Below, one piece after another: positions 5,997 to 60,505 of a DNA stretch of 64,000 bases. The translations under genes and the position numbers were made by a program. The notes under the pieces are model-generated. The model was not told the DNA's origin, searched no databases, and saw only the letters and a program-made list of their open reading frames with translations. This DNA is from Candidatus Marinacidobacterales bacterium (GTDB lineage Bacteria > Acidobacteriota > Vicinamibacteria > Marinacidobacterales > SMYC01): the NCBI GenBank assembly GCA_965237955.1, contig OZ250169.1, positions 4,224,001-4,288,000 of the forward strand, given 5' to 3'. Positions within the stretch are counted from its first letter, which is position 1. Each line of letters opens with the position of its first letter.

Positions 5997-6951
5997 CTAC
6001 AGGGTCTTCATGTATTCGACCAGCTGCCAGCGCTGCTCATCAGTCAAACCACCATCAGCTGGCTTCTTGGTTCCGTATTCGTGCCCGGCATTGGAATTGC
6101 CCTTCAGGCTCACGTCGAATGTAAAGGGCGCAAAGCCGGCTCCAGTCGTGGATGACTGGTCCATCGCATAACCAATCCGGATCGGGTCGTACATCCTGCT
6201 GCCCAGAACGAAGGTCTTGCTGCGTTCCTCGGCGGGTAGGAGAATTTCGTAGAGATTCGGCACGGAGCCGTTGTGAAGATAGGGCGCGGTCGCCCAGATA
6301 CCATTGAGTGGACGTCCCTTGTAGCCTTGATTGTCGTCGCTCGATCCGGTGTGAGTTGCATGCTCCTTGATGAGTGATTTGAGGGACTCTTCGGCGTGAT
6401 GCAGGAGCGAGCCGGCCACGCTGTTGATGAGTGGATTGAGGCCAGTGGTTGGGTCGGGAATCTTGTCGCCCGCGAGCACAACGACTTTCTTGCCAGCGAA
6501 CGGACCTGCCTCATAGGTGCGGCTCAGGTTGTTCAATTCGCCCGGATCCGTTCCAAGCTCATCGATAGGAGTGATCACTGCCTTGTACGCAGTCTTGATC
6601 GCTTCGTTTCGTGGAATCACTTGGTGGCACTGGGCGCACTGGGCTGCGAATAAAACTTCGCCCTTGGCAGCCTGTGCAGCATCGATCTTGGGAAAGACAT
6701 CCTGCGGCCACTGTGGCGAGCTTAGTTCGCGTACCCAGTTTTCGAGCCTGCCTAGGTTTTCGATCAGCATGCTGGATGCGTAGGTATCGCTGTCGCTGAG
6801 CTGTACTTTGCCATACACGCCAATGACCTCCCCGCCATTCCGTATCAGAGCTCCGGCCCCACTTACATTGGCGGCGAATCCGGTCCACTGGACAACGCTG
6901 GATTGATCGGTGCCCCACAGGAAGGGATAGCTTGCCGGCGCGTCAGCAGGT
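5997..6951 (-). pseudogene. C-terminal part of a di-heme cytochrome c peroxidase-like (RoxA/MauG-superfamily-like) protein, 5' end cut off by IS3
   Basis: CAQCH, YKGRPLNGIWATAPYLHNGSVP, GNSNAGHEYG. The frame runs back to [11 protein letters not shown] at the IS3 left end. Confidence 0.85.
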
Positions 6952-7001
6952 TGAACCGCCCCGGGTTTTCCGGAGACTCCAACTCTTGAGAGGATGGAGT
7001 C

Positions 7002-8232
<1,231 letters not shown>

Positions 8233-47481: not shown

Positions 47482-48572
47482 GCTGCCTTGGTGCACAACT
47501 CCGATAGAGGCCGATAGCTCGCTTGGCCCCGACTCCCATCATCCGATCATCTCGCTATCAGGCATCCCGAGCGCCGTCATGGTGTTGAGAATCTTGCACC
47601 CGATCCTTGCCTCGACTCTCTGTGCCGCCAACCCTCTCGCTCGCATCGCTGAGCCCACGATAGCCTTGTAGCGATGGAACGTTGTCTCGACTTTGCTCCG
47701 TTTGCTGTAGCCCGATTCTGTGTGCCACTTTCGTTTGCCGAGCCGAGCTTGTGCTGCAATGTTGCGATTGCGCTGTCGGCTGCTCGCCGGCCCCGATGCG
47801 AGCTGGGCGCCCTTGCGCGGCGGTATCAGCACCCTCGGCGAGCAATGAGCGCTGTGATTCTCGATTGCCTCATAGACACCGCCGGCGTCGTATGCGGTGT
47901 CAGCTCTGGCCGATGAGATGGGACTGTCGATCTGTCCGACAAGCGATGCAACCCGCGATGAATCGCGGGCTCTTTTGCTCGTCAGCTCGCCGGCGACGAC
48001 TTCGCCACTCTGCTCGTCGACACACAGATGGAGCTTGCGATAGTCCCTGCTCTTTGGTGCTCTGCGCAGCTGGCCGGCGTGGACAGCGAGACCGCTGCTG
48101 TCGATCAAGATGTGCAACAGCGTCTTCTGCTTGTCTTGGTAGAAGGGGACCTTACCCAGCTTCGCCTTGCGCCTCGAGATCGTGGTGTGATCGGGCACAT
48201 CATTGTCTAGCTTCATCAGAGCGAACAACGATCGCAGCAATCCCTCGCTCTGCCTAGATGACAGATGAAACACCATGCCCAGGGTGACAGCCGTCTCGAT
48301 GGCGTGGTTCGAGTACTTGCGTTGACGGCCCGGTTTCCTCCTCCTCGGCCGGGGCGCGTCCCAGTTCACAAGCTTGCCGGCGGTGAGCGAGATCCAGACG
48401 GTCAGGCTCCCACGGTTGCGTAGACCCGCCTCATATTCACGCCAATTCCTCACGCGATAGGCCTTCTTCACATACTTCCGCTGAGTGCGTTTGAAAATGC
48501 TCATGGGGAACCTCGAATCCGTGAGTAAAGGACAATTGTGGACCGAGATCGCGAGTTGTGCACCAAGGCAGC
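47482..48572 (-). mobile_element. IS5-family (IS903-group-like) element
   Basis: Perfect 20-bp IR GCTGCCTTGGTGCACAACTC / GAGTTGTGCACCAAGGCAGC, no flanking direct repeat. Confidence 0.92.
47539..48504 (-). CDS. IS5 transposase
   Basis: NWREYEAGLRNRGSLTVW, PDHTTISRR, IDSSG, RKLHL, ADTAYD, RSKVET. Confidence 0.93.
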   Translation of the reverse strand: MSIFKRTQRKYVKKAYRVRNWREYEAGLRNRGSLTVWISLTAGKLVNWDAPRPRRRKPGRQRKYSNHAIETAVTLGMVFHLSSRQSEGLLRSLFALMKLDNDVPDHTTISRRKAKLGKVPFYQDKQKTLLHILIDSSGLAVHAGQLRRAPKSRDYRKLHLCVDEQSGEVVAGELTSKRARDSSRVASLVGQIDSPISSARADTAYDAGGVYEAIENHSAHCSPRVLIPPRKGAQLASGPASSRQRNRNIAAQARLGKRKWHTESGYSKRSKVETTFHRYKAIVGSAMRARGLAAQRVEARIGCKILNTMTALGMPDSEMIG

Positions 48573-48801
48573 GATTTTCCACGATTCGGGACAGATTTAC
48601 GACCACACGCGGGACTTGAAGTTCTTCGACTGGCACCGCAACTACGGGTTCGGGATCCGCCTTCGAAACGCCACCGGCACCCAGTTCCGCCTCGAGGTCG
48701 CCACCGGCGACGAGGGGTTCTCGGTGCACATTACCTTCGGCGACCGGCCGGTCCGCGCCTTCGGAGCCGGCCCGGTTCGCTACCCGCTCTACCGGCCATG
48801 A
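48573..48801 (+). pseudogene. C-terminal remnant of an Omp85/BamA-TamA-type outer-membrane barrel
   Basis: IFHDSGQIY…YGFGIRL…FRLEVATGDEG…VHITFG; 5' part removed at the IS5. Confidence 0.7.
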
Positions 48802-50486
48802 AGAAGACGAAGACGTTCCAGGTGCGCGTGTTGAGCCTGCTGAGCCTGGTGAGCTCGTTCGGCGCTCTGCCGTGCGAAGCAGTTGAGGAAAAGCTGTTCC
48901 TGCGGCCGCCCCTATGGGTGGATGCCGACGACAAAAGCATTCCGGAGCCCGAGGAGCGAGACGTCTCCGAGCTCTTCGATCGGTTGCGCAACACCTGACT
49001 CCGTCACCTGGATCTAGGATACGTCGGCCTCAAGTTGTCGAACAGGCCCGCCATGAACGTGAACGCCTGGGACGAGGTTCCCGACTCGTCCTGGTTCGTG
49101 AACCGGATCGGGCGCCGCCCGGTCTCCGTCGAGGAGCTCCTCGAAGGGGCGCCCGGCGTGGCGCCCCGGCCGGGAAGGTGGGAGGCGGTTCGCCTCAAGA
49201 CCCAGGGCTACACACCGGGCTTGCGCTTCGTCGACTCTGCCGGCGAAGGTTTCGTGCTCAAGTTCGACCCCGACGCTCCCGAGCGGAACTCCGCCGCGGA
49301 CAGGATCGGATCGCTCCTGATGCACGCGGCGGGCTACTACGCCCCGCAGAACAGCATCATCTACTTCTGGCCGTCCGACATCGTGCAGGCGGAGGACGCG
49401 CTGTTCGAGGACATGCTCGGGCGTAGGCGTCCCTTGACCTCGAACGATCTCGAGGCAGTGCTCTCCACGCTCACCCGGCGTGACGACGGCACCATCCGTG
49501 CCCTGGCGAGTCACTACCTGCCTGGAATCCCGAAGGGAAACTTTCCCTACTCGGGAACGCGCCAGGACGATCCGAACGACCTCATTCCCCACGAGCTACG
49601 GCGTGAGCTGAGAGGCCTGCGGGTGATCGCCTCGTGGTTCAACCACGTCGATGTAAAGGAGGTCAACAACCTCGACGTCTTCGTTTCCCGGGGTGACGCC
49701 GGTCATCTACGCCACTACTACATCGACTTCGGTTCGACGATGGGAAGCGGAGACTTCATGAACGGGCCGAAGCGCGTCGGCCACGAACATCTCTTCGACG
49801 GCTCGGCGATCGGCAAATCGCTCGTGACCCTCGGAGGCTGGGAGCGGCCGTGGGAGCGGGAAGAGGACGGTTTACCCGAGGTGGGCCACTTCGAGTCCGA
49901 GCTTTTCGAGCCTCGGACCTGGAAGGCCAATTATCCCAACCTCGCCTTCGAGGAAATGGATGCGAGCGACGCCTATTGGGGCGCCAAGATCGTAACTGCC
50001 TTCGACGACGAGCTCGTCTCAGCCCTCGTCTCGGCAGGCCAATACAGCCGTCCCGAGGTGCGCGCGTATCTCGAACGGGTCTTCCGCGAGCGCCGCGACA
50101 AGATCGGAAGATATTGGTTCGGCGTCGTGAGCCCCCTTGAGGACTTCGAGCTCCACCCGTCCGGAGGCGAGCTCGTCCTTCGATTCCGCGATCTCGGCGT
50201 CGAGCGCGAGTACGCTCGCCCCGAGGACAGGACCTATACCTTCGTGCTCGAAGAGCCTTCGAGGCTCGGGAGGATATCTTCCGTGTCCTCCGTCGACGTC
50301 CCCGAGATTCCCATCACCCGAGACGCCGCGAGGGCAGGGCCTCCCACCGACCGTTTCGGCCGCACGCCCATGCTCGTCGTGGAGGTTTCCGTCGCGGGTG
50401 GACCGCTTCCCGTGCGGGTCGTCATCGGACGCGATACAGGCGGGGATGAGCTGAAGGTTCTGGGCCTTGAACACGCCCCCCGCTGA
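48798..50486 (+). pseudogene. Secreted atypical-kinase-fold-like protein with an in-frame TGA at 48996-48998
   Basis: ATGA overlap with the Omp85 stop, signal peptide, QGYTPG, FVLKFD, WFNHVDVKEVN, YIDFG. Both ORFs are in one frame. Confidence 0.7.
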
Positions 50487-50585
50487 GCCAACGGGCCCGA
50501 GGGCAGCCGCACAGCGAGCATCGCTAGTGCCGGCGTGGCGAGCGTCACGAGTGGACCTTATGCTGGCGCTCCGCCAGGACTAGCA

Positions 50586-52956
50586 CTAATTCGAACGTGG
50601 CTCGGTAGCCGGTTGCTGAGGCAGGAACGTTTCGACAGCGTCGGGTTTACCGATGTGGAAGCCCTGTCCGAAGTCGACGCCAGCCTCCCTGACGAGCGTG
50701 AGCGTTTCCTCGCTTCCGACGAACTCGGCGACGGTGCGTTTGCGGAGGGCTCGAGCCACCTCGACCATGGCGCGGACGAGGTGCTGGTCGACTTTGTTCT
50801 TCGGAAGGTCGCGGATGAAGCTTCCATCGATCTTCAAGTAGTCCACGGGTAGGGTCTTGAGCTTGTGGAATGACGAAAACCCGACCCCGAAGTCATCGAG
50901 TGCCAGGTGGCAGCCAATTTGTTTCAGAGCGATCGCGAAAATCTTCGCGCGCTCGCTATCCGAGATCGCCGTGGTTTCCGTGATCTCGAATGTGAGGTTC
51001 CTCGCGTCGACGTCGTTCTCGTCGAGCTCTTTTTCGATTAACGTCGTCAGCTCGAAGTCTCCCAGGGGATTTCCCCGAGAGATTAACCGACAGTCGGATG
51101 TTGTTGCCGACTTTTTGCTGGCGCCCCATCAGCTTGATGGATTGGCGCACCACCCAGCGATCGATCGAACGGATGAGCCCGAAGCGCTCCGCGGTGGGGA
51201 GGAACGACGCCGGCGGCATCAGCTCGTTGTTCTCGCCCAACATGCGGATCAAGATCTCGAACTGGACGATGGTGTTGGTCTTCAAGTCGAGAATCGGCTG
51301 AGCATGGAGGACGAACCGACCCCGCGCCAGCGCCTCGCGGATGAGTTTGTCTCCGGAGAGTCTGGAATCGACCTCTGCCTGCCAGTTCTCGTCGGGCTTG
51401 AACACCACGAACTGATCGCGGCCGCGTTGCTTCGCGCGCGCGCGAGCTTGGTCGGCACGGGAGAGAAGCTCTTCAGCGCTCGCCCCGTGCTCGGGATAAA
51501 ACGCGACCCCGACGCTTCCGGTCACACCCACCGGTTGGTCGCCAGCGTCGACGGAGTGATTGCGCACTTCCTTCAACAACCGCTCGCCGACGAATTCCAC
51601 CTCGCTAGGACGCGTTTCGGTGATGAGAATTGCGAACTCGTCGCCGTCGAGGCGGGCGAGCATATCGTTCGCGCGGACGTGTTTTCGCAGCAGGCGCGCG
51701 AGCCCACTCAGGAGTTTGTCACCGGTGCTGTGGCCCAGACTGTCGTTGACGTATTTGAGATCGTCGAGGTCGAGCAAGAGTACGGCACCGCCAGCGCCCG
51801 AACGTTGGGCGCGCGCGATCACCCGACCGAACTCTTCGACGAAGCGACGACGCGTGTACAGCGATGTGAGCGGATCGTGATCGGCGAGGAACAGTAGGTG
51901 GTCATCGAAGCGTTTGCGCTCGGTCTGATCGCGCGCGATGAGCGAAACGAGCTCGACGGCGCCACTTTCGGTGCAGTGGGGGATAGCGGTGAGTGAGATC
52001 GGCACCTCGGTATCGTCTACGCCGACAAGCGCGGATTCTCCTTGCCACCGTCCCTCTTCGATCGCCGTGGGGATGGCGTTGTGCGTGATCTGCTTCCGCG
52101 CCCACTCGGGTAGAAAATCGTCGAGCCGCAAACCGAACTGGCGAGGCTCGTGGATCCCGAGAAGCACCCGCGCCGCCGGGTTGATGTAGCGTATTTCGCC
52201 GCGTGTCGTCGTCGTCACCACCGGATCGAGGATCGCGTCGAGGATGGTGTCGAGGCGCTCTTTCGACGAGTCAGTCGCTTTCTGCCGCGTGGTATCACGG
52301 ACGATCGCAAGCACTTCGTTGTCTCCGGAGAGCGCAAACCGCGCTTGGTAGCTTCGTGTCTCGTCACCTTCGTCGAGAACGAACTCGAAGTGCTGGGGCT
52401 TGTTTTCGACGAAGACCTGCGCGAGTGCCTCGACACACTGATCGGCAACGCTCTCGGGAACGATTTCGCTGAGCTTTTTGCCGACAGCGGGCTCCGAAGT
52501 GACAAGAGATGGGGCGCCTTCTGGCGCTTGGTGGCCGAGCACGTGGCCGTCGTGGTCGAGTCGAAAAATGGTGTCGGGAATCGCGTCGGTGAGAGCTGCG
52601 ACTTTGGTCTCGCTCTCGAGACGGCGCAGCTCGGAGACGTTTCGCTCGCCGGCGAGTAGAGCGGCCTCGCGAGAGATACGGCCGAGCTCGTCGGCTCGCT
52701 GGATGGGGAGCTCCTTCGGGATGGGTCCTGAGCCCGCGCGAAGCTGAGCGAGCCCTTTGGCGATTCGGGCGAGCGGCGCGCAAATGATTCGTTGGATGAT
52801 CGTCACCACGTACGCGAGGGCGATCGAAAAACTCAGAGTGTAGGCTACCGCGCGAGGACCGGGAGGCTGCCCGGCGAAGAGATAGCCGCCGCCAATAGCG
52901 AGCACGAGTACGGGCGCGAGCCACGAGATGAGTTGGCGGAGGAGTGACTTGGTCAT
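50586..52956 (-). pseudogene. TM-HAMP-PAS-PAS-GGDEF-EAL c-di-GMP enzyme, frameshifted near 51070
   Basis: RADELG, HDPLT, RLDGDEF, QPI…EIL. The shifted frame continues FEITET, LDDFG, KIDGSF. Confidence 0.88.
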
Positions 52957-52986
52957 CAGTGTGATTTTCGAGCCCGTTCCGAGCAC

Positions 52987-54269
52987 TAAGTAGTCTTTTT
53001 CATAAGTACAGTGACGTATATTTAAGTTGCTGAAAGAGCGCCTCTCTGGCATGATTCTGCCCATTGGAGCAGATAAATGCCTAGAGAATCGCCGTTTGAC
53101 ATTGAGTTGACCGTCGACGAGCACGATATCCTTGAAGAAACAGCCAGAGCATATACGTCACCGTATATCGATGTTGTTCGTGCAAAGATCATTCTGTATG
53201 CCGCCGAAGGCCTGACGAACAAGGAGATTGGAGAGCGCCTCGACACTCCGCGACAGATCGTGAGCAAGTGGCGGAAGCGTTTTTTCGACCAACGCCTGGC
53301 AGGGCTGCAAGAGCAGCCCCGCCGGGGGCGGCCCGGCCAGTTTTCCCCCCTCCGTCGTCGTCGCCGTAAAGGCTCTCGCGTGTGAGTTGCCGCACCAAAC
53401 TGGACTGCCGCTCTCACGACTCAGCACCGCGGACCTCCGTCGAGCCGCGATCGACCGTGGGATCGTGGCGAACATCGGACAGACGACCATCTGGCGTTGG
53501 TTGAGTGAGGACGCCATTAAGCCCTGGACCCATCGTAGCTGGGTGTTCCCGCGCGACCCGGACTTCGAAGCCAAAGCAGCTCCCATTCTCGACCTCTACC
53601 AAGGACGTTGGCGTCGTAAGCCCTTCTCTGGAAACGAGTTCGTCATCAGCGCCGATGAGAAACCCCGTATCCAGTGCCGGCTTCGCACATACCCGACGAC
53701 TTCGACGGCTCCAGGGCGGCCGATGCGCATCGAGCATGAGTACTCTCGTGAAGGCACGGTGAACTACCTTGCCGCATGGGATGTTCACCGCGCGAAAGTC
53801 TTCGGTCATTGCGAACCGAAGAGCACGATCGTCTCCTTCGAGCGCTTCGTCGGGCAAGTCATGCGTCGCAAGCCCTATCGCACCGCGAAGCGAGTCTTCT
53901 GGATCGTCGATAACGCTTCCATTCATCGCGGCAAAGCTTCTGTCGAGCGCTTCCGGCAACAGTGGCCTAATTCCGTACTCGTTCATACCCCAACCCATGC
54001 CAGCTGGCTCAATCAAGTCGAGATCTTCTTCTCTATCGTTCAAAGAAAGGTCCTCACCCCGAACGACTTCTTGGCACCCGACGACATCCCTTTCCATCTT
54101 TCCAAGTTCGAACGCTACTACGAGGACATCGCTCGACCCTTTCAATGGAAATTCACCCGCAAAGACCTCAAACAGCTGATGAAACGCCTTGCCGTATACG
54201 AACCTCGTCTTGCTTCCGCCGCTTGACCGTTGAAAAATACGTCACCGAACTTTCGGGATAGCGTACTAA
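52987..54269 (+). mobile_element. IS630-family element with a two-ORF (frameshift) transposase
   Basis: Imperfect IRs sharing GTGACGTAT at the same offset; CTAAG at both junctions (52986-52990, 54266-54270). Confidence 0.88.
53077..54226 (+). CDS. IS630 transposase orfA/orfB, putative frameshift at TTTTCCCCCC (53341-53350)
   Basis: HTH orfA, then [30 protein letters not shown]. Confidence 0.88.
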
Positions 54270-54452
54270 GCAAGGGGGTGCCGCACGCTCTGCCCACTAC
54301 GTTGCAACGTTCGCGCCACTTCCAGGCAGGAAAGGGTCGGTCGAAGTACTTACGTTTCAATAAGATCACAGGGGCGCGGCCATTGTCCCCAGGCTAGACA
54401 TAGGCTTTTCCCTACGGCGAGATCGCCTGGTCGTGCAAAATGAAACTTGCTT

Positions 54453-56225
54453 TCAGCGTGGCTTCGCGAGTTGGAAGCGAACGAAGGCGATGGTGCCGAG
54501 CACGATCGCGGCAACGAGCACCGTTCCTGCGTTCACGAGGCCCTTGTCGGCATACCACACGATCAGATAGCCCAGTGAGCCGGGTAAGAGCGCGTAGTAA
54601 ATGAACGGAAGGAATGTCATGCGAATGACCATCCCTTCTCGCCCGAGAAGGCCCACGACCGCGGAGGCGGCGACGACATTGTGGACGCAAATCATGTTGC
54701 CCGCGGCACCACCGACAGCTTGAAGGGCGACGACCCAGCTCGGGTCGACACCGATGCGCTCGCCTACACCGAACTGGAACAACGAGAACATCATGTTGCT
54801 GACGGTGTTGCTTCCGGCCACGAACGCGCCCATACCGCCGATGAACGGGGCGAAGATCGGCCACGCACCGCCCACGAGGGATGCGACGCCATCTGCAAGC
54901 ACAATCGGCATCCGCTCCAATCCCGCGGCCCCGTTATTGCTGTTGAGAAAGACTTGGACCATGGGGACGGTGAAGACGAGCGCCACCGAAGCGGCTGCGG
55001 TCGTCTTCAGCGAGCTGGTCCACGCGTTCTTGTACGAACGGCCGTCGATTTTGTGGAGGAAGTACGTGGCCAGTGAAGCTACGACGAAAATTGTTCCCGG
55101 GAGCGTCAGCGGTTGGAAGCTGGCGTTGACGGGCGAGCCGAAGATTTCCTGCCATGACACCGACCACCCGTTCAGCCATCCTCCAAAGGGCAGGTTCCTC
55201 AGTCGGGTGAGGATGAGGAGCGCGACGACGATGCCGTAAGGCGACCAAGCCAGTACAGGGCTCATCGTCTTCGCGGCGCGGTCGCCGTCGCGGATCTCCA
55301 TCGTGCCCGACCACTCCGGCTCCCACGTCTCTTTCGGCTCGAAGTCCCAGTACTCGGACGGTTTCGGCATCAACAGTCCGTTCTTGGCGGCAACAACGAC
55401 GATGACGAGCCCGATGGGCGCGCCGAGAAGAGAAGGGAACTCGGGGCCGAGTACGTTCGCGATGATCAAGTACGGAATCGTCATCGCGAACGCCGCGAAC
55501 AACGCGAACTTCCACACGCGGAGTCCCTCGGCGAACGAGCGATGTTTTCCGAAAAAACGTGTCATGAACGCGACCACGATGAGCGGGACGAGCGTGCCCG
55601 CTGCGGCGTGGAGCAGCGCCACTTTGGCTCCGATCATCGCCAGGAACGCGGGCCATTCCGACAGTCCTTGTGCGGCAGCGAATGCTTGGACGTTCGCGGC
55701 GTCGGTCAGGCCAGTGCTGACGCCGATGAGGATTGGGGTTCCTACCGCACCAAACGAAACCGGAGTGCTTTGAATGATCATGCCGGCCATCACCGCGGCG
55801 AGCGCGGGGAAGCCGAGTCCGACGAGAAGCGGAACGGCGACGGCCGCGGGCGTGCCGAACCCGGCGGAGCCTTCGATGAATGCACCGAAGAGCCACGCAA
55901 TGATGATGACTTGAACACGGCGATCGGGAGTGATGTTGACGAAACCTTGGCGGATGGTTCTGAGCGCGCCGCTCTCTTTGAGAGTATTCAACAGGAGAAT
56001 GGCGCCGAAAATGATGTAGAGAAGCGTTCCCGCCACGATCAGTCCGTTGACGCTCGCCGCCGCGACTTGAACGCCGGGAACGCGCCAAACGAGTAGCGCG
56101 AGCGCGACCGCCACGATGTAAGAGAGCGGCATCGCGCGAGCCGCGGGCCATCGCAGGATCACGAGAAACAGCGCGACCGTGAGGATCGGCAGCAGAGAAA
56201 GGAACGAGAGGACGTAGATGCTCAT
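54453..56225 (-). CDS. lctP: L-lactate permease
   Basis: [43 protein letters not shown]. Confidence 0.92.
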
Positions 56226-56458
56226 CGCGTTGGGCCTCCGCCCCGTTGATGCTGACAATGCTGATAATAATGTGGCGGTTCGGGGTCGGCCGGCCAAGGA
56301 GCCGAATTGTAGCGCGCGGAGAGCCTAGGGGTCACGGTTGAGCGCCTCCTTCCGCATCCTTACGTTGACCGGCGCAGAGCCTAGCACATGCGGTACGGAA
56401 CTCAAAGGCTTGGTAGGAATTTGGGATAGAGGTCGTCCGGGTCTAGAATGCGCCGAAT

Positions 56459-57180
56459 ATGTTTGGGACACGCACCATCGCCGTCGTCGCTCTTGCCGGT
56501 ATTTCGGGCTCGTCATTCGGGCAGTCGTCGGCCATCAATGCCACCATCGAAGGCGTCATTCAGGATGCGAGCGGAGGCGCCGTGCCCGGCGTGGCCGTTA
56601 CCGTCATCAACACCGGCACCGGGCTTGCTCGCGTGGTCACGACCAACGAGGCCGGATACTACCGCGCGCGGCTCCTTCCGCTCGGGACCTGCCAGTCTCC
56701 GCCGAGATTCCCGGGTTCACCCGTTTCGCCCAAGACGGTGTCGTCCTCACCGCGGGCATGACCGCACGCGTCGACGTGACGCTGAACGTGGGTCAGGTTC
56801 GAGAATCGGTCACGGTATCCGCGGATGCTCCGGTGGTGCGGCCGGGAAAGATCGAGCTCGGCCGGGTCCTCGACTCGAGAGAGATCGACAACAACCCGCT
56901 GGTGTCGCGTAATCCTTTCAACTTCGCGTTGCTCCAGGCCAACGTGACCGGCTACGAGAACGAAGAGTTCGGTGTTCCCCGCATCAATGCCAACGGAACG
57001 CAGATGCGCACGAACTACCAGATGGACGGGAACACTGACATGCAGAAAAACCGTGCCGGGCTCAGGCTCGCTCCGATCTCGTAGATCATGGTGCAGGAAG
57101 TGAACGTCGTCACTTCCGGCTTCGCTCCCGAGTTCGGAAAAACGACGGGCATGGTCTATAACGTCGTCACGCCGTCGCGC
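56459..57180 (+). pseudogene. N-terminal remnant of a TonB-dependent receptor (carboxypeptidase-regulatory domain plus plug)
   Basis: IEGVIQDASGGAVPGV, frameshift near 56690, NYQMDG, in-frame TAG at 57082, EVNVVTSGFAPEFG, then truncated. Confidence 0.85.
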
Positions 57181-57262
57181 CCTCGAGGAGTGGCAGCTCG
57201 CGAAGTCCCTGTTCAGTGTGTTCCGGGGGATCTCGTAGGGGCTGCCCCCAAACAACTCCGAT

Positions 57263-58123
57263 CTACCACCGAAGCGACTTAGAAAGTCGAGACCCATCGG
57301 CGAGTGTAACAACGACGTCAATGCTCCCCTTCCGGTCAGCCGCAGTCCAATCGCTTCGCCTCTCCCACAAAAGCGCCGTCTCCTTCGGTCCAAGGCGCTG
57401 AGCCAGTGGCGTGACCGGTCGCCCCCGTTCGCTATTCATGCTGTCGTGGGTGTCGGTAAGCTCCACCGAAATCAACGCGAGACCTTGATTCGAAAGGTTG
57501 TGCGCTCGCACTCTGAGAACGTACGGGTCTCCGGGATTGGGCGCCGATGGAAGGATTTCAATGATGAGCTCAGCGGCACGCGATTCGCTCGGCGAGCCGT
57601 CGGTTGTTAGCTCGGTGCTGGATTCTTGGAATCGTTGTCCTGCTTCTCGCGCCTCGAGCTCGCTCAAGCTCACGACTTGCGCCATCAGAATCTTGACTTC
57701 GAAGTTGTTGGGTTCGAGCTTGAGGGCACCTTCGTAGGCGAGGATCGCCTCCTCGTAGTCGCCCGCTTCCGTCGCCGACGTGGCGCGGCGGATGTGAGCA
57801 GCGACCTTCGACGCTCTCTCGCTTGCGGTCATCATCCGCACGCGAGTGCGGGGCGCCGGCTCGTCGCGGAGTTTCGTGATGATCGGCTCGGGCGCAGGGG
57901 CTTCAGGCGCGTCCTCGGAAACGGGGGCGGGCGATGGCTCGGGGGCGCGATCTTCCAGAGCCACGTGCGTCGGCTCGGGCTCGGGCGCTGCAGGCGGAGG
58001 ACCCGAACGGCCGGTGAAGTAAAACAAAAGCGTGCTCCCTATTATCGCGGCGAGGATCCACATGACGACGAACGTCAGAAACTGTGACCACCGCACACGG
58101 GCGGTGCGCGCGGGCATCGGCAT
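57263..58123 (-). CDS. Membrane-anchored Pro-rich/TPR hypothetical protein
   Basis: N-terminal TM, PEP linker, GDYEEAILAYEGALKLEPNN. Confidence 0.7.
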   Translation of the reverse strand: MPMPARTARVRWSQFLTFVVMWILAAIIGSTLLFYFTGRSGPPPAAPEPEPTHVALEDRAPEPSPAPVSEDAPEAPAPEPIITKLRDEPAPRTRVRMMTASERASKVAAHIRRATSATEAGDYEEAILAYEGALKLEPNNFEVKILMAQVVSLSELEAREAGQRFQESSTELTTDGSPSESRAAELIIEILPSAPNPGDPYVLRVRAHNLSNQGLALISVELTDTHDSMNSERGRPVTPLAQRLGPKETALLWERRSDWTAADRKGSIDVVVTLADGSRLSKSLRW

Positions 58124-58527: not shown

Positions 58528-59376
58528 TCAACGGAGCGGGTCGGCCGGGCCGAGCCACGTCAGCTGAACGCCGGCGCCACCGGGGACGAGCATCGGAGTG
58601 AGCGCGAGCCGCTCCTTGGCGATAGTGACAGTCACCGTGCGACCGCTCATGATCCCGAGCGCCGCGCCGAAAATGACATCGCTCAAGTAGTGCCGCCCCT
58701 CGTTCAACCGCGAGCTCGCGACGTAGCTCGCGAACGCGTAGGCAGGAATGCCGACGCGTAAGCCGTATCGCTTCTGCAGCACCGTCGCCGTCGCAAACGA
58801 CGCCGAGGTGTGTCCCGAAGGGAACGAGGTCGTGCCCGACCCGTCTGGCCGCTCTCGACCGGCAGCGACTTTGATCCCGAAGGTGATGACCCCGGCGACG
58901 ACCTGTGCACGTACGAGGTCGCGCCCGAGATCCTCCACGCCCGGGTTCGAGAAAAGCTTTCCCAGGCCGAACGTCGTCACCGCGATCGCGGCCTGCGCGT
59001 AACCGGCGCCCGCGATCTCGCCCGCTTCGAAGACTTGGTCGAGCGAGCCTCCCCTGTTGAGCTCGTTGAGCTCGGAGTTCAGACGGCTGGTGGCAACGCG
59101 TTGGTCGAAGTGGCTCGCCCCCCACGCCGCCCCTAGACCGACGCCGACAATCGCGAGGTTTTCTTTCGTGGTGAAGACGTTCTTGAAGTCGATTCCGATC
59201 TGCCGCACGAGGTTCGGAGACGAGCGGTCCTCTTCCTCGACCCGTTCGGTCGTGCGCTGGCCGTAAAAGTAGGTCCTCGGGATGAAGAAGGGATCGAGCC
59301 GCTCACCGCCAACGGCCCGCGGGCACGTGATGCCAAGCGCCAGAAGAGACCAACAAAAGCAAACTCGTCCGTTCAT
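58528..59376 (-). CDS. PAP2-family membrane phosphatase
   Basis: KVAAGRERP, SFPSGH, SRLNEGRHYLSD. Confidence 0.9.
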   Translation of the reverse strand: MNGRVCFCWSLLALGITCPRAVGGERLDPFFIPRTYFYGQRTTERVEEEDRSSPNLVRQIGIDFKNVFTTKENLAIVGVGLGAAWGASHFDQRVATSRLNSELNELNRGGSLDQVFEAGEIAGAGYAQAAIAVTTFGLGKLFSNPGVEDLGRDLVRAQVVAGVITFGIKVAAGRERPDGSGTTSFPSGHTSASFATATVLQKRYGLRVGIPAYAFASYVASSRLNEGRHYLSDVIFGAALGIMSGRTVTVTIAKERLALTPMLVPGGAGVQLTWLGPADPLR

Positions 59377-59779: not shown

Positions 59780-60505
59780 TCAGCGACCCGCGACGTTCAG
59801 CCACGGTGTGTGTCGTTTGAGAGACCGGAGCACCACGTACCCAAGACTCCCGCCGGCAAGGACCACTATCCACGGTGGATCGAGCGTAGTGCGACTTTCC
59901 ACGCTCCAATTTCCCATCAGCTCGAGGAGCACCAAGGTCGCGATGACGCCGAGCCAGCTCGAGGACTCTCGCCGGAGTACGGTTCTCACCGAGAACGGCA
60001 AGGAGGGCTGACGAAAGAGTCGCACGTTCGGAAAAAATGCTGGCGTCTGCCGTGCCCACCGAAGGTAGCGGTTTTTGAACTTGCCTCGAAGAAACTCTTC
60101 CTCCGCATACATGATGCGCTCGTAGTAGATCCAGAAAACAGCTGCTACCGAAAACGCAAGCCACCAGCTTCGAGGCACGAGCGCGACGCCGAGCCAGATG
60201 AGAAAGTTCCCCAAATAGAGCGGGTGCCGCACGAGCGAATAGGCTCCGGTCGTGTTGAGGTGCTCGCAAATTGGACATCGAGTGTTCCGTCCCGAGGTTC
60301 CACTCGGAGCGTGTCCCACGACGTAAGCGCGAACCAAGAGCCCCGCAAAGGCGGTAGCTAGGCAAAACGATTCCCACGGTGAGCCGGGTCGAATTGAGAC
60401 GGCCCGCATTTGGGACAGTACGAGAGCCAGTGCGGCGAGCGGAAAATAACTACGCCAGCGAAACAAGAACTAACCCGCGACCGCAAATTCCTCTCGTAGG
60501 GGCAT
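59780..60505 (-). pseudogene. lmtA: LmtA-like (ICMT-family) lipid A phosphate methyltransferase with an in-frame TAG at codon 12
   Basis: MPLREEFAVAG*FLFRWRSY, GTSGRNT, LNTTGAYSLVRHPLYLGNF, YYERIMYAEEEFL. Confidence 0.72.

What the first reader, a model, noticed from the sequence alone, without database searches (positions are those of the whole stretch)
48573..50486. Omp85 barrel translationally coupled to a secreted atypical kinase-fold protein: candidate undescribed envelope phosphorylation system
Seen: an ATGA overlap joins an Omp85-like C-terminus to a 562-codon gene. That gene has a Sec signal and ordered kinase-like motifs: a Gly loop QGYTPG, beta3 Lys FVLKFD, a catalytic loop NHVDVKEVN, and DFG. 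One in-frame TGA (probably from TGG) interrupts it. Established: D-x-K-x-x-N plus DFG is the protein-kinase-like catalytic core, and exported atypical kinases exist (CotH, Fam20). Inference: a two-gene module in which a dedicated Omp85 exports or partners an extracytoplasmic kinase acting on surface lipids, glycans or proteins. Intact orthologs should exist elsewhere.
Basis: partly seen in the sequence, partly recalled or inferred. Interest (0 to 1): 0.72.

Follow-up and report, generated by a model that had tools for sequence, protein, structure and literature searches.

The report
Broken copy of exported-kinase barrel module
This locus is a recently broken copy of a widespread, undescribed two-gene unit that pairs a signal-peptide protein predicted to fold as a kinase with its own outer-membrane barrel, often beside ATP/ADP-carrier-like and phosphatase genes, which likely means ATP-driven phosphorylation outside the cytoplasm, where ATP is thought to be lacking.

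Summary
In detail: ATGA overlap, 562-codon gene, signal peptide, ordered kinase motifs, one TGA at codon 67. The TGA is real. Two independent runs carry it, while two sister strains have TGG. All four kinase paralogues in this genome are broken, so this copy is a relic.

Intact orthologues are common (54 of 301 genomes in the phylum, plus several other phyla). An intact orthologue folds like CtkA, PI4KII, Fam20 and CotH, with a C-terminal FnIII-like domain, and the catalytic Lys/Asp/Asn/Asp are conserved. A POTRA-less 16-strand Omp85 gene is adjacent in 64 of 72 and 49 of 53 loci, and the two genes co-diverge. NTT (ATP/ADP-carrier-like) genes lie within 7 kb in 39 of 72 and 10 of 53 loci (chance under 2%), but rarely in this gene's own clade. 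Exported phosphatases are frequent.

Best reading: a periplasmic kinase docked on its barrel and fed ATP by an NTT. Activity, binding, location and substrate are untested. No paper found. This scan reported the same system at least eight times on other genomes.

The parts
47482..48572 (-). IS5-type insertion sequence (transposase 47539-48501) that cuts the barrel gene on its right and a DUF4388-DnaJ-TPR gene on its left
   Evidence: 20-nt perfect inverted repeats; PF13737 E 1e-24; 80 full-length copies; contigs of X4 and X5 run on past both junctions for 1.4-7 kb without it (table 8)
48574..48801 (+). 3' remnant (75 codons) of a POTRA-less Omp85 barrel gene: the last strands and the C-terminal tail
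   Evidence: 60% identical to residues 390-464 of intact orthologue L034; aligns in A3; orthologue model has 16 strands and matches TamA/BamA barrels
48736..48798 (+). Clade-specific C-terminal extension after the last barrel strand, ending GPVRYPLYRP
   Evidence: A GP[VI]R[YW]xxY[RK][RP]-type tail (some rows vary, e.g. GPTRY, GPFRY) in 12 of 12 clade genome loci and 25 of 41 clade metagenome loci, many cut short; 0 of 39 other loci; low pLDDT in the monomer model
48798..48801 (+). ATGA start/stop overlap
   Evidence: same overlap in 9 of 12 distinct clade loci
48798..48881 (+). Predicted Sec signal peptide (about residues 1-28)
   Evidence: sequence; hydrophobic N-terminal stretch in 77 of 81 family members by a crude hydropathy rule
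48996..48998 (+). Premature TGA at an otherwise invariant Trp
49131..50132 (+). Atypical protein-kinase-like domain: Gly loop 49203-49220, beta3 Lys155 49260-49262, catalytic loop 49641-49667, DFG 49725-49733
   Evidence: model of orthologue P0003, pLDDT 86.9; VIA Z 12.9 to CtkA, 11.5 to PI4KII-alpha, 10.8 to Fam20; residue conservation
50124..50486 (+). C-terminal FnIII-like beta-sandwich
   Evidence: model residues 432-540 match FnIII domains at Z 5.7-6.6; absent from the shorter Eisenbacteria members

Best explanation
This copy is a broken relic (premature stop, barrel gene cut by an insertion sequence) of a conserved two-gene module whose intact form likely places an exported, ATP-using kinase on the periplasmic face of its own Omp85 barrel, where it would phosphorylate an envelope target with ATP likely supplied by an NTT-type carrier. 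Steps, with my odds: (1) this copy is dead: shown, 0.95; (2) the barrel and kinase are a dedicated, co-evolving pair: shown genomically, 0.97; (3) the kinase fold and catalytic residues are intact in orthologues: predicted and shown by conservation, giving an active nucleotide-dependent phosphotransferase at 0.8; (4) export by Sec: predicted, 0.9; (5) the kinase stays in the periplasm docked on the barrel rather than passing through it: inferred, 0.65; (6) the NTT exports ATP in exchange for ADP: inferred, 0.45; (7) exported phosphatases reverse the mark: inferred, 0.5; (8) the target is an outer-membrane lipid or glycolipid (0.45), a protein (0.4) or a small molecule (0.15): inferred.
For: Fold: the top 14 VIA rows are all atypical kinases (CtkA Z 12.9, rmsd 3.6, 223 aligned; PI4KII-alpha 11.5; Fam20 10.8; actin-fragmin kinase 10.2; CotH 9.7; HipA 9.4). 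The Foldseek top hit is Fam20C. Conservation in 81 diverse members: Gly 80, beta3 Lys 77, catalytic Asp 80, Asn 80, DFG Asp 80. Export: 77 of 81 have a hydrophobic N-terminus and 17 a lipobox-like motif. Omp85 adjacent on the same strand within 400 nt: 64 of 72 genome loci, 49 of 53 loci from an even phylum sample, 58 of 60 metagenome loci with at least 500 nt upstream, and 4 of 4 paralogues in this genome. Kinase and barrel distances correlate (r 0.83, 102 pairs, best of 999 permutations 0.09), and paralogous pairs keep their own barrel type in two genomes. The barrel model has 16 strands and N-terminal helices but no POTRA. NTT-like genes lie within the fetched flanks in 39 of 72 and 10 of 53 loci, 8 of those 10 within 1 kb, against 0.4-1.8% by chance. 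NTT is present in 49 of 54 kinase-positive genomes against 83 of 247 others. The NTT profile matches solved ATP/ADP carriers 9j3n and 9j3j (E 6e-50 and 2e-41). A phosphatase gene occurs in 39 of 72 loci, and PAP2 is fused N-terminally to the barrel in 4. Precedent: PlpD keeps its enzyme domain in the periplasm (PMC11116518, abstract and Discussion). Relic.
Against: No activity, location or binding was measured. In this gene's own clade the NTT link is weak: 1 of 12 genome loci and 4 of 41 mostly short metagenome loci, with no phosphatase neighbours. Five of 54 kinase-positive genomes show no NTT, and 83 NTT-positive genomes show no kinase; genome co-occurrence is confounded by kinship and genome size. 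Both NTT-HEAT genes of this genome have open frames although all four kinases are broken. The linked NTTs are distant from characterised carriers (TIGR00769 scores 45-97 against a cut-off of 387), lack the GKSGG stretch of the solved carriers, and may carry other substrates. PMC5381601 describes NTTs as importers and does not mention export. Nineteen of 121 loci differ at one or more of the four catalytic positions (some may be alignment shifts). No kinase-barrel fusion was found. My neighbour profiles were built from these same loci; Pfam confirmed Omp85 in 43 of 68 neighbours sent.
Confidence: 0.5

Rival explanations
1. Dedicated secretion pair: the barrel exports the kinase to the surface or medium, where it acts on surface polymers, neighbouring cells or hosts, in the manner of two-partner secretion.
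For: Barrel-then-cargo gene order in 58 of 64 adjacent loci; translational coupling; Sec signals; the best fold match CtkA is titled a proinflammatory kinase; co-divergence fits cargo specificity.
Against: No POTRA domains, and an Omp85/TamA-type barrel. The cargo is a globular kinase with no beta-helix. Lipobox-like motifs occur in 17 of 81 members. PlpD, once thought to be secreted, is periplasmic. An inner-membrane NTT neighbour is hard to explain.
Confidence: 0.2
2. Nucleotide or phosphate scavenging: the barrel admits phosphorylated solutes, the phosphatases and the kinase-fold enzyme interconvert them in the periplasm, and the NTT imports nucleotides, which is its known direction.
For: Characterised NTTs import nucleotides (PMC5381601); three unrelated exported phosphatase families are neighbours; NTTs stay intact here while the kinases decay.
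Against: The barrel keeps the L6 (L/V)RGF-type motif of Omp85 barrels and is tied to the kinase far more tightly than to the NTT or the phosphatases. The kinase keeps a full phosphotransfer set that a scavenging route would not obviously need.
Confidence: 0.17
3. The kinase-fold protein is a nucleotide-sensing or structural partner of a specialised outer-membrane assembly factor and does not transfer phosphate in vivo.
For: The periplasm is described as lacking ATP. Degenerate members exist, including one paralogue in this genome without the catalytic Asp. The window's clade mostly lacks NTT and phosphatase neighbours.
Against: Lys/Asp/Asn/Asp are intact in 102 of 121 loci, including 60 of 74 without a nearby NTT, at a mean identity of 38%.
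Confidence: 0.1
4. The stop and the truncation are assembly errors, and this copy is intact in the living organism.
For: The genome is a single contig with many apparent breaks (14 of 59 homologous genes tested). The breaks in the three paralogues were not checked against reads.
Against: Contigs from two studies reproduce the TGA and start inside the IS end with 0 differences.
Confidence: 0.03

Closest known systems
Fam20C/Fam20B secretory-pathway kinases (PDB 4kqa, 5xom, 5yh0)
   Same: Atypical kinase fold (Foldseek top hit; Z 9.3-10.8); acts outside the cytosol (PMC4718504, passages); degenerate paralogues recall Fam20A. ATP supply by a membrane exchanger is recalled, not read here.
   Different: 8-11% identity, no Pfam Fam20C match, bacterial, paired with an Omp85 barrel, carries an FnIII-like tail, and has a D-x-[KR]-x-x-N loop.
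CtkA, HipA and PI4KII-type atypical kinases (3akj, 4pu3, 4pla)
   Same: Best structural matches (Z 12.9, 9.4, 11.5); weak HipA_C hits in 11 of 53 members (best E 7e-4).
   Different: 9-12% identity, signal peptides, barrel partner, no antitoxin-like neighbour recurring in the neighbour clusters.
CotH spore-coat kinase (5jda)
   Same: Bacterial atypical kinase fold, Z 9.7; acts outside the cytoplasm (recalled).
   Different: No CotH Pfam match; a Gram-negative envelope module with a barrel.
noNterm Omp85 and enzyme-Omp85 fusions (PlpD, Metallo-Omp85)
   Same: 16-strand Omp85 barrel without POTRA; the barrel profile matches Metallo-Omp85 barrels at 99.3%, as PMC4104836 notes for noNterm barrels; PAP2-barrel fusions parallel PlpD.
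   Different: The enzyme is a separate kinase gene. 'Kinase' occurs 0 times in PMC4104836 and PMC11358297.
Two-partner secretion (type Vb)
   Same: Omp85-superfamily barrel gene next to a Sec-exported partner.
   Different: No POTRA domains, no beta-helical cargo, barrel closer to TamA/BamA.
NTT / NTT-HEAT carriers of free-living bacteria (PMC5381601)
   Same: Neighbours match PF03219 and solved carriers, and include NTT-HEAT fusions.
   Different: That paper leaves their role unknown and does not mention kinases, export or the periplasm (0 occurrences each).

Membership tests
Protein-kinase-like superfamily | Bilobal kinase fold | tested here: met
   Model of orthologue P0003; top 14 VIA rows are kinases, Z 7.0-12.9
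Protein-kinase-like superfamily | beta3 Lys, catalytic Asp, Asn, DFG Asp (PMC4718504) | tested here: met
   77, 80, 80 and 80 of 81; K155, D285, N290, D310 in the window
Protein-kinase-like superfamily | Phosphotransfer from ATP | not testable with these tools
   needs an assay
Fam20 kinases | Sequence membership (PF06702) | tested here: not met
   no hit in 53 members; Atlas score 0.82, a lead only
HipA-like kinases | HipA_C or HipA_2 profile at the curated threshold | tested here: inconclusive
   weak hits in 11 and 2 of 53 members, best E 7e-4
HipA-like kinases | Cytoplasmic toxin with an adjacent antitoxin gene (recalled) | tested here: not met
   signal peptides in 77 of 81; the partner gene is an Omp85
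Omp85 superfamily (partner gene) | 16-strand barrel with the L6 RGF-type motif | tested here: met
   16 strands in the model; TamA barrel E 3e-13; PF01103; LRGF consensus. Tested on orthologues; the window holds only the last strands
noNterm Omp85 subfamily | No POTRA or other N-terminal domain | tested here: met
   only helices 54-108 precede the barrel; no POTRA Pfam hit. Clustering with the published noNterm set was not tested; NF047779 is below its cut-off
Two-partner secretion (type Vb) | Barrel with two POTRA domains | tested here: not met
Two-partner secretion (type Vb) | beta-helical cargo | tested here: not met
   alpha/beta kinase plus beta-sandwich
NTT/AAA carriers (neighbours elsewhere) | Sequence relationship to ATP/ADP carriers | tested here: met
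   PF03219 above cut-off in 10 of 10 sent; PDB 9j3n E 6e-50; below the TIGR00769 cut-off
NTT/AAA carriers (neighbours elsewhere) | ATP/ADP exchange and its direction | not testable with these tools
   needs transport assays
Metallo-Omp85 fusion (middle domain as the same kinase family) | Profile homology between its middle domain and this kinase | tested here: inconclusive
   hhalign probability 1-2% with a 4-row alignment; nearest named Atlas clusters CotH and HipA at 0.79-0.80

The most novel reading that the evidence does not exclude
Many Gram-negative phyla run an ATP-fed phosphorylation circuit in the periplasm: an NTT carrier working outward delivers ATP, a Fam20/PI4K-like kinase docked under a dedicated Omp85 barrel writes the mark on outer-membrane lipids or proteins, and exported phosphatases, sometimes fused to the barrel, erase it. 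This would be a bacterial counterpart of Golgi-lumen phosphorylation and would explain why free-living bacteria keep NTTs.
Probability: 0.35. Interest if true: 0.9.

Novelty: categorically new. Interest (0 to 1): 0.7.

Why it matters
The periplasm is generally treated as ATP-free (stated in PMC11116518). A widespread exported kinase with an intact active site, its own Omp85 barrel and a linked nucleotide carrier would challenge that. It would also give testable roles to two orphans: POTRA-less Omp85 barrels, and the NTT/NTT-HEAT carriers of free-living bacteria. A cultured carrier exists (Nitrospira moscoviensis, locus L059: PAP2, Omp85, kinase, lipoprotein; no NTT in its fetched flanks), and the genes can be expressed in E. 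coli. This particular copy matters less as a reagent, since it is broken. It does show that the module is dispensable and is decaying in an IS-rich lineage: four of four kinase copies are broken, and sister strains appear broken at other sites.

Tried and rejected
Family libraries: Pfam gives nothing for the window protein and only weak HipA hits for the family. NCBIfam gives nothing for six kinases. A PDB sequence search gives nothing significant.

Kinase-barrel fusion: none among 12 longer homologues (weak test) or in loci up to L171. The long forms carry other C-terminal extensions.

Metallo-Omp85 middle domain as the same family: no hmmsearch hit and hhalign 1-2%; left as a lead.

Readthrough by an alternative code: not supported, since sister strains have TGG.

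5' half of the barrel elsewhere in the genome: not found. Target-site duplications of the IS: none consistent (73 of 80 copies without).

The claim in e1-1026645 that catalytic residues survive only beside an NTT: not met in my loci (60 of 74 without an NTT keep all four).

No RNA holder was listed; this is no evidence on expression. The full-library family count was not obtained. Intact junction letters of sister strains and the breaks in the three paralogues were not checked against reads.

Literature searches found no paper describing the module; two were for NTT background. Subscription journals and supplements were not seen. The tables of PMC4104836 could list some of these barrels.

Full report
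OBSERVATION. The ATG at 48798 overlaps the TGA at 48799-48801. The frame 48798-50486 has 562 codons and one internal TGA at codon 67. The upstream gene is only a 75-codon stump. An IS5-type element at 47482-48572 (20-nt perfect inverted repeats; transposase PF13737; 80 full-length copies) removes the rest and also cuts a DUF4388-DnaJ-TPR gene on its other side. The stump is 60% identical to the last 75 residues of an intact Omp85 orthologue, and the missing part was not found elsewhere in the genome.

IS THE DAMAGE REAL? Yes for this locus. Contigs of runs X1 and X2 (different studies) match the window with 0 differences over 2.2 and 1.7 kb, include the stop and begin in the IS end. X4 and X5 read TGG, and their contigs run on for 4.4 and 7.2 kb past the junction, which is not expected if the high-copy IS sat there. 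Those strains seem to have their own breaks: their contigs end near 49930 and 49716, where the near-identical proteins P0004 and P0023 also end or diverge. In this genome the three paralogous kinases are broken too: an in-frame TAG plus a frameshift at 5.75 Mb, a frameshift at 3.41 Mb, and a frameshift plus truncation at 7.21 Mb. These three were not checked against reads. The rough background is 14 broken of 59 homologous genes, so four of four suggests relaxed selection on the module without proving it. Among 41 relatives, 25 have the kinase; one family of 2.7-4.2 Mb genomes has 0 of 14.

THE FAMILY. A search gave 922 homologues among 7,994 candidates scored; none of the 120 listed has a Pfam domain. 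The kinase is in 54 of 301 genomes sampled evenly from the phylum. Record titles of the 72 loci include Acidobacteriota, Nitrospira, Eisenbacteria, Myxococcota, Rhodothermales, Gemmatimonadetes, Latescibacterota and Zixibacteria. The model of intact orthologue P0003 (73% identical; pLDDT 86.9, pTM 0.90) puts the Gly loop between strands 1 and 2, the Lys on strand 3 and the Glu at the start of a long helix. Foldseek ranks Fam20C first, with modest E-values near 2e-4. VIA ranks CtkA (Z 12.9), PI4KII-alpha (11.5), Fam20 (10.8), actin-fragmin kinase (10.2), CotH (9.7), HipA (9.4) and MavQ (8.7), and matches residues 432-540 to FnIII domains. In 81 members averaging 34% column identity, the beta3 Lys is kept in 77, and the catalytic Asp, the Asn and the DFG Asp in 80 each; position +2 of the catalytic loop is Lys or Arg in 60. 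These are the residues PMC4718504 names as the catalytic core (passages). A crude hydropathy rule finds an N-terminal hydrophobic stretch in 77 of 81 and a lipobox-like motif in 17. The window gene falls in a well-supported Acidobacteriota clade of 23 rows.

THE BARREL. An Omp85 gene lies within 400 nt on the same strand in 64 of 72 genome loci (58 upstream, 6 downstream); five of the eight misses are at contig ends. It is adjacent in 49 of 53 loci from the even sample, one per genome, and in 58 of 60 metagenome loci with at least 500 nt upstream (best 80 of 194 kept). These counts use profiles built from the same loci; Pfam PF01103 independently hit 43 of 68 neighbours sent. The orthologue model has a signal peptide, three to four helices and 16 strands, with no POTRA, and matches the TamA barrel best. 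Kinase and barrel distances correlate across 102 pairs (r 0.83). Shared descent inflates this, but in G004 and G011 each paralogous kinase keeps its own barrel type (94-96% to the cognate, 31-32% to the other). In the window's clade the ATGA overlap recurs in 9 of 12 loci, and the barrel ends in a conserved basic-aromatic tail rather than at its last strand. That tail is poorly predicted alone and is a candidate contact for the kinase (inference).

FUEL AND ERASERS. Clustering neighbours showed NTT-family carriers, plain and HEAT-fused, before I consulted earlier findings. They lie within the fetched flanks in 39 of 72 loci and 10 of 53 evenly sampled loci, 8 within 1 kb, against 0.4-1.8% expected. 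NTT occurs in 49 of 54 kinase-positive genomes and 83 of 247 others; kinship and genome size confound this. Exported-type phosphatases occur in 39 of 72 loci (PAP2 26, calcineurin-like 15, PF04185 5), and PAP2 is fused to the barrel's N-terminus in four Eisenbacteria. Against: the window's clade has an NTT near 1 of 12 genome loci and 4 of 41 short metagenome loci, and no phosphatase. The carriers are distant from characterised ones. This genome's two NTT-HEAT genes are intact; one lies 2.6 kb from the 3.41 Mb paralogue.

MECHANISM. Both proteins cross the inner membrane by Sec (predicted). The barrel inserts in the outer membrane, and the kinase likely docks on its periplasmic face, as the PlpD enzyme domain does (PMC11116518, abstract and Discussion read). 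An NTT would swap cytosolic ATP for periplasmic ADP. The kinase would phosphorylate a target held at the barrel, and exported phosphatases would reverse it. The fold matches include both lipid and protein kinases, so the target is open. I lean slightly to lipid because of the PAP2 fusions and the PlpD precedent. Overall confidence 0.5. Rivals: secretion through the barrel 0.2, scavenging 0.17, non-catalytic partner 0.1, artefact 0.03.

KNOWN SYSTEMS. It works most like Fam20C in the Golgi lumen, or like PlpD with a separate enzyme. It is not a member of Fam20, HipA toxin-antitoxin or two-partner secretion by the features tested. PMC4104836 and PMC11358297 (passages read) describe noNterm Omp85s without the word kinase. 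PMC5381601 (parts 1-2 of 4 and passages) leaves free-living NTTs unexplained. Eight searches found no description of the module; subscription journals and supplements were not seen. Metallo-Omp85 proteins share the barrel (99.3%) and have a middle domain with kinase-like motifs, but homology to this kinase was not shown.

EARLIER FINDINGS. The scan reported this module on at least eight other genomes. These are unchecked notes and are not counted as support. My counts agree with them on the pair and the NTT link, and disagree with the claim that catalytic residues survive only beside an NTT.

VERDICT. A real feature and a dead copy of a real, undescribed envelope module. Novelty: categorically new as a system, built from known folds. 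Interest 0.7.

Noticed in passing
P0139, P0143, P0136, P0142 (about residues 410-770 of P0143): Metallo-Omp85 fusion proteins contain an unannotated middle domain with kinase-like motifs (GGGxQT, LRSVxK, DWDRHxDxW, PRDRD); the nearest named Atlas clusters are CotH and HipA. They may be a fused phosphatase-kinase-barrel parallel to this module; one member (P0139) has degenerate motifs.
   Followed up: partly
L034-L046 and clade metagenome loci: Hanks-type Ser/Thr kinase genes start within 4 kb downstream in 17 of 29 clade loci against 10 of 52 other Acidobacteriota loci. Architectures and orientations are mixed, many loci are near-duplicates, and this genome has 91 such kinases.
   Followed up: partly
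window 58528-59376 (-): PAP2 gene with a signal-peptide-like start, the only full-length match in the genome to the PAP2 type that neighbours these kinases elsewhere (E 9e-19), 8 kb from the kinase; relic or chance. A phospholipid methyltransferase-like gene lies at 59780-60466 (-).
   Followed up: partly
L106:6427-11838 (-) (G000 1.39 Mb): Intact operon of NTT-HEAT, a tandem cNBD-like protein and an exported calcineurin-like phosphoesterase with TPRs, with no kinase or barrel nearby.
   Followed up: partly
L001:7804-8913 and 6035-7722 (-); P0123-P0132; L159: A paralogous subfamily lacks the catalytic Asp and carries a 400-600 residue C-terminal extension without a Pfam match: probable pseudokinases, still paired with an Omp85 in L001 and L159.
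   Followed up: partly
L025, L058, L064, L142, L143, L146, L156, L161: A subgroup replaces the beta3 Lys (Ser, Ala, Glu, Thr, Gln) while keeping Asp/Asn/Asp; in the three rows printed a Lys sits at the start of the Gly loop, reminiscent of WNK-type rearrangement.
   Followed up: no
L059:8790-9707 and 16 other loci, nearly all Nitrospira: An uncharacterised 290-330 aa lipoprotein-like gene follows the kinase or its NTT; no Pfam or NCBIfam match.
   Followed up: partly
L034:4648-5469, L039:4370-5338, L182, L189, L207: An uncharacterised exported protein recurs near the module in five clade loci, directly upstream of the barrel in L034 and L039; no Pfam match.
   Followed up: partly
window 50535-57400: Other damaged genes nearby: a PAS-GGDEF-EAL gene whose EAL match stops at 95 of 236 profile positions (50956-53124, -), an IS630-like element (53077-54226) and a fragmented TonB-dependent-receptor-like gene from 56459.
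   Followed up: no
L060: A record titled as a haloarchaeon carries the Omp85-kinase pair, grouping with a Bacteroidetes-titled record; likely a mis-binned contig.
   Followed up: no
P0133: A kinase of this family fused to DUF4114, a MopE-type metal-binding motif, Cys-rich repeats and a C-terminal tail resembling a MYXO-CTERM sorting signal (recalled); if a real single gene, it would favour surface location in that lineage.
   Followed up: no
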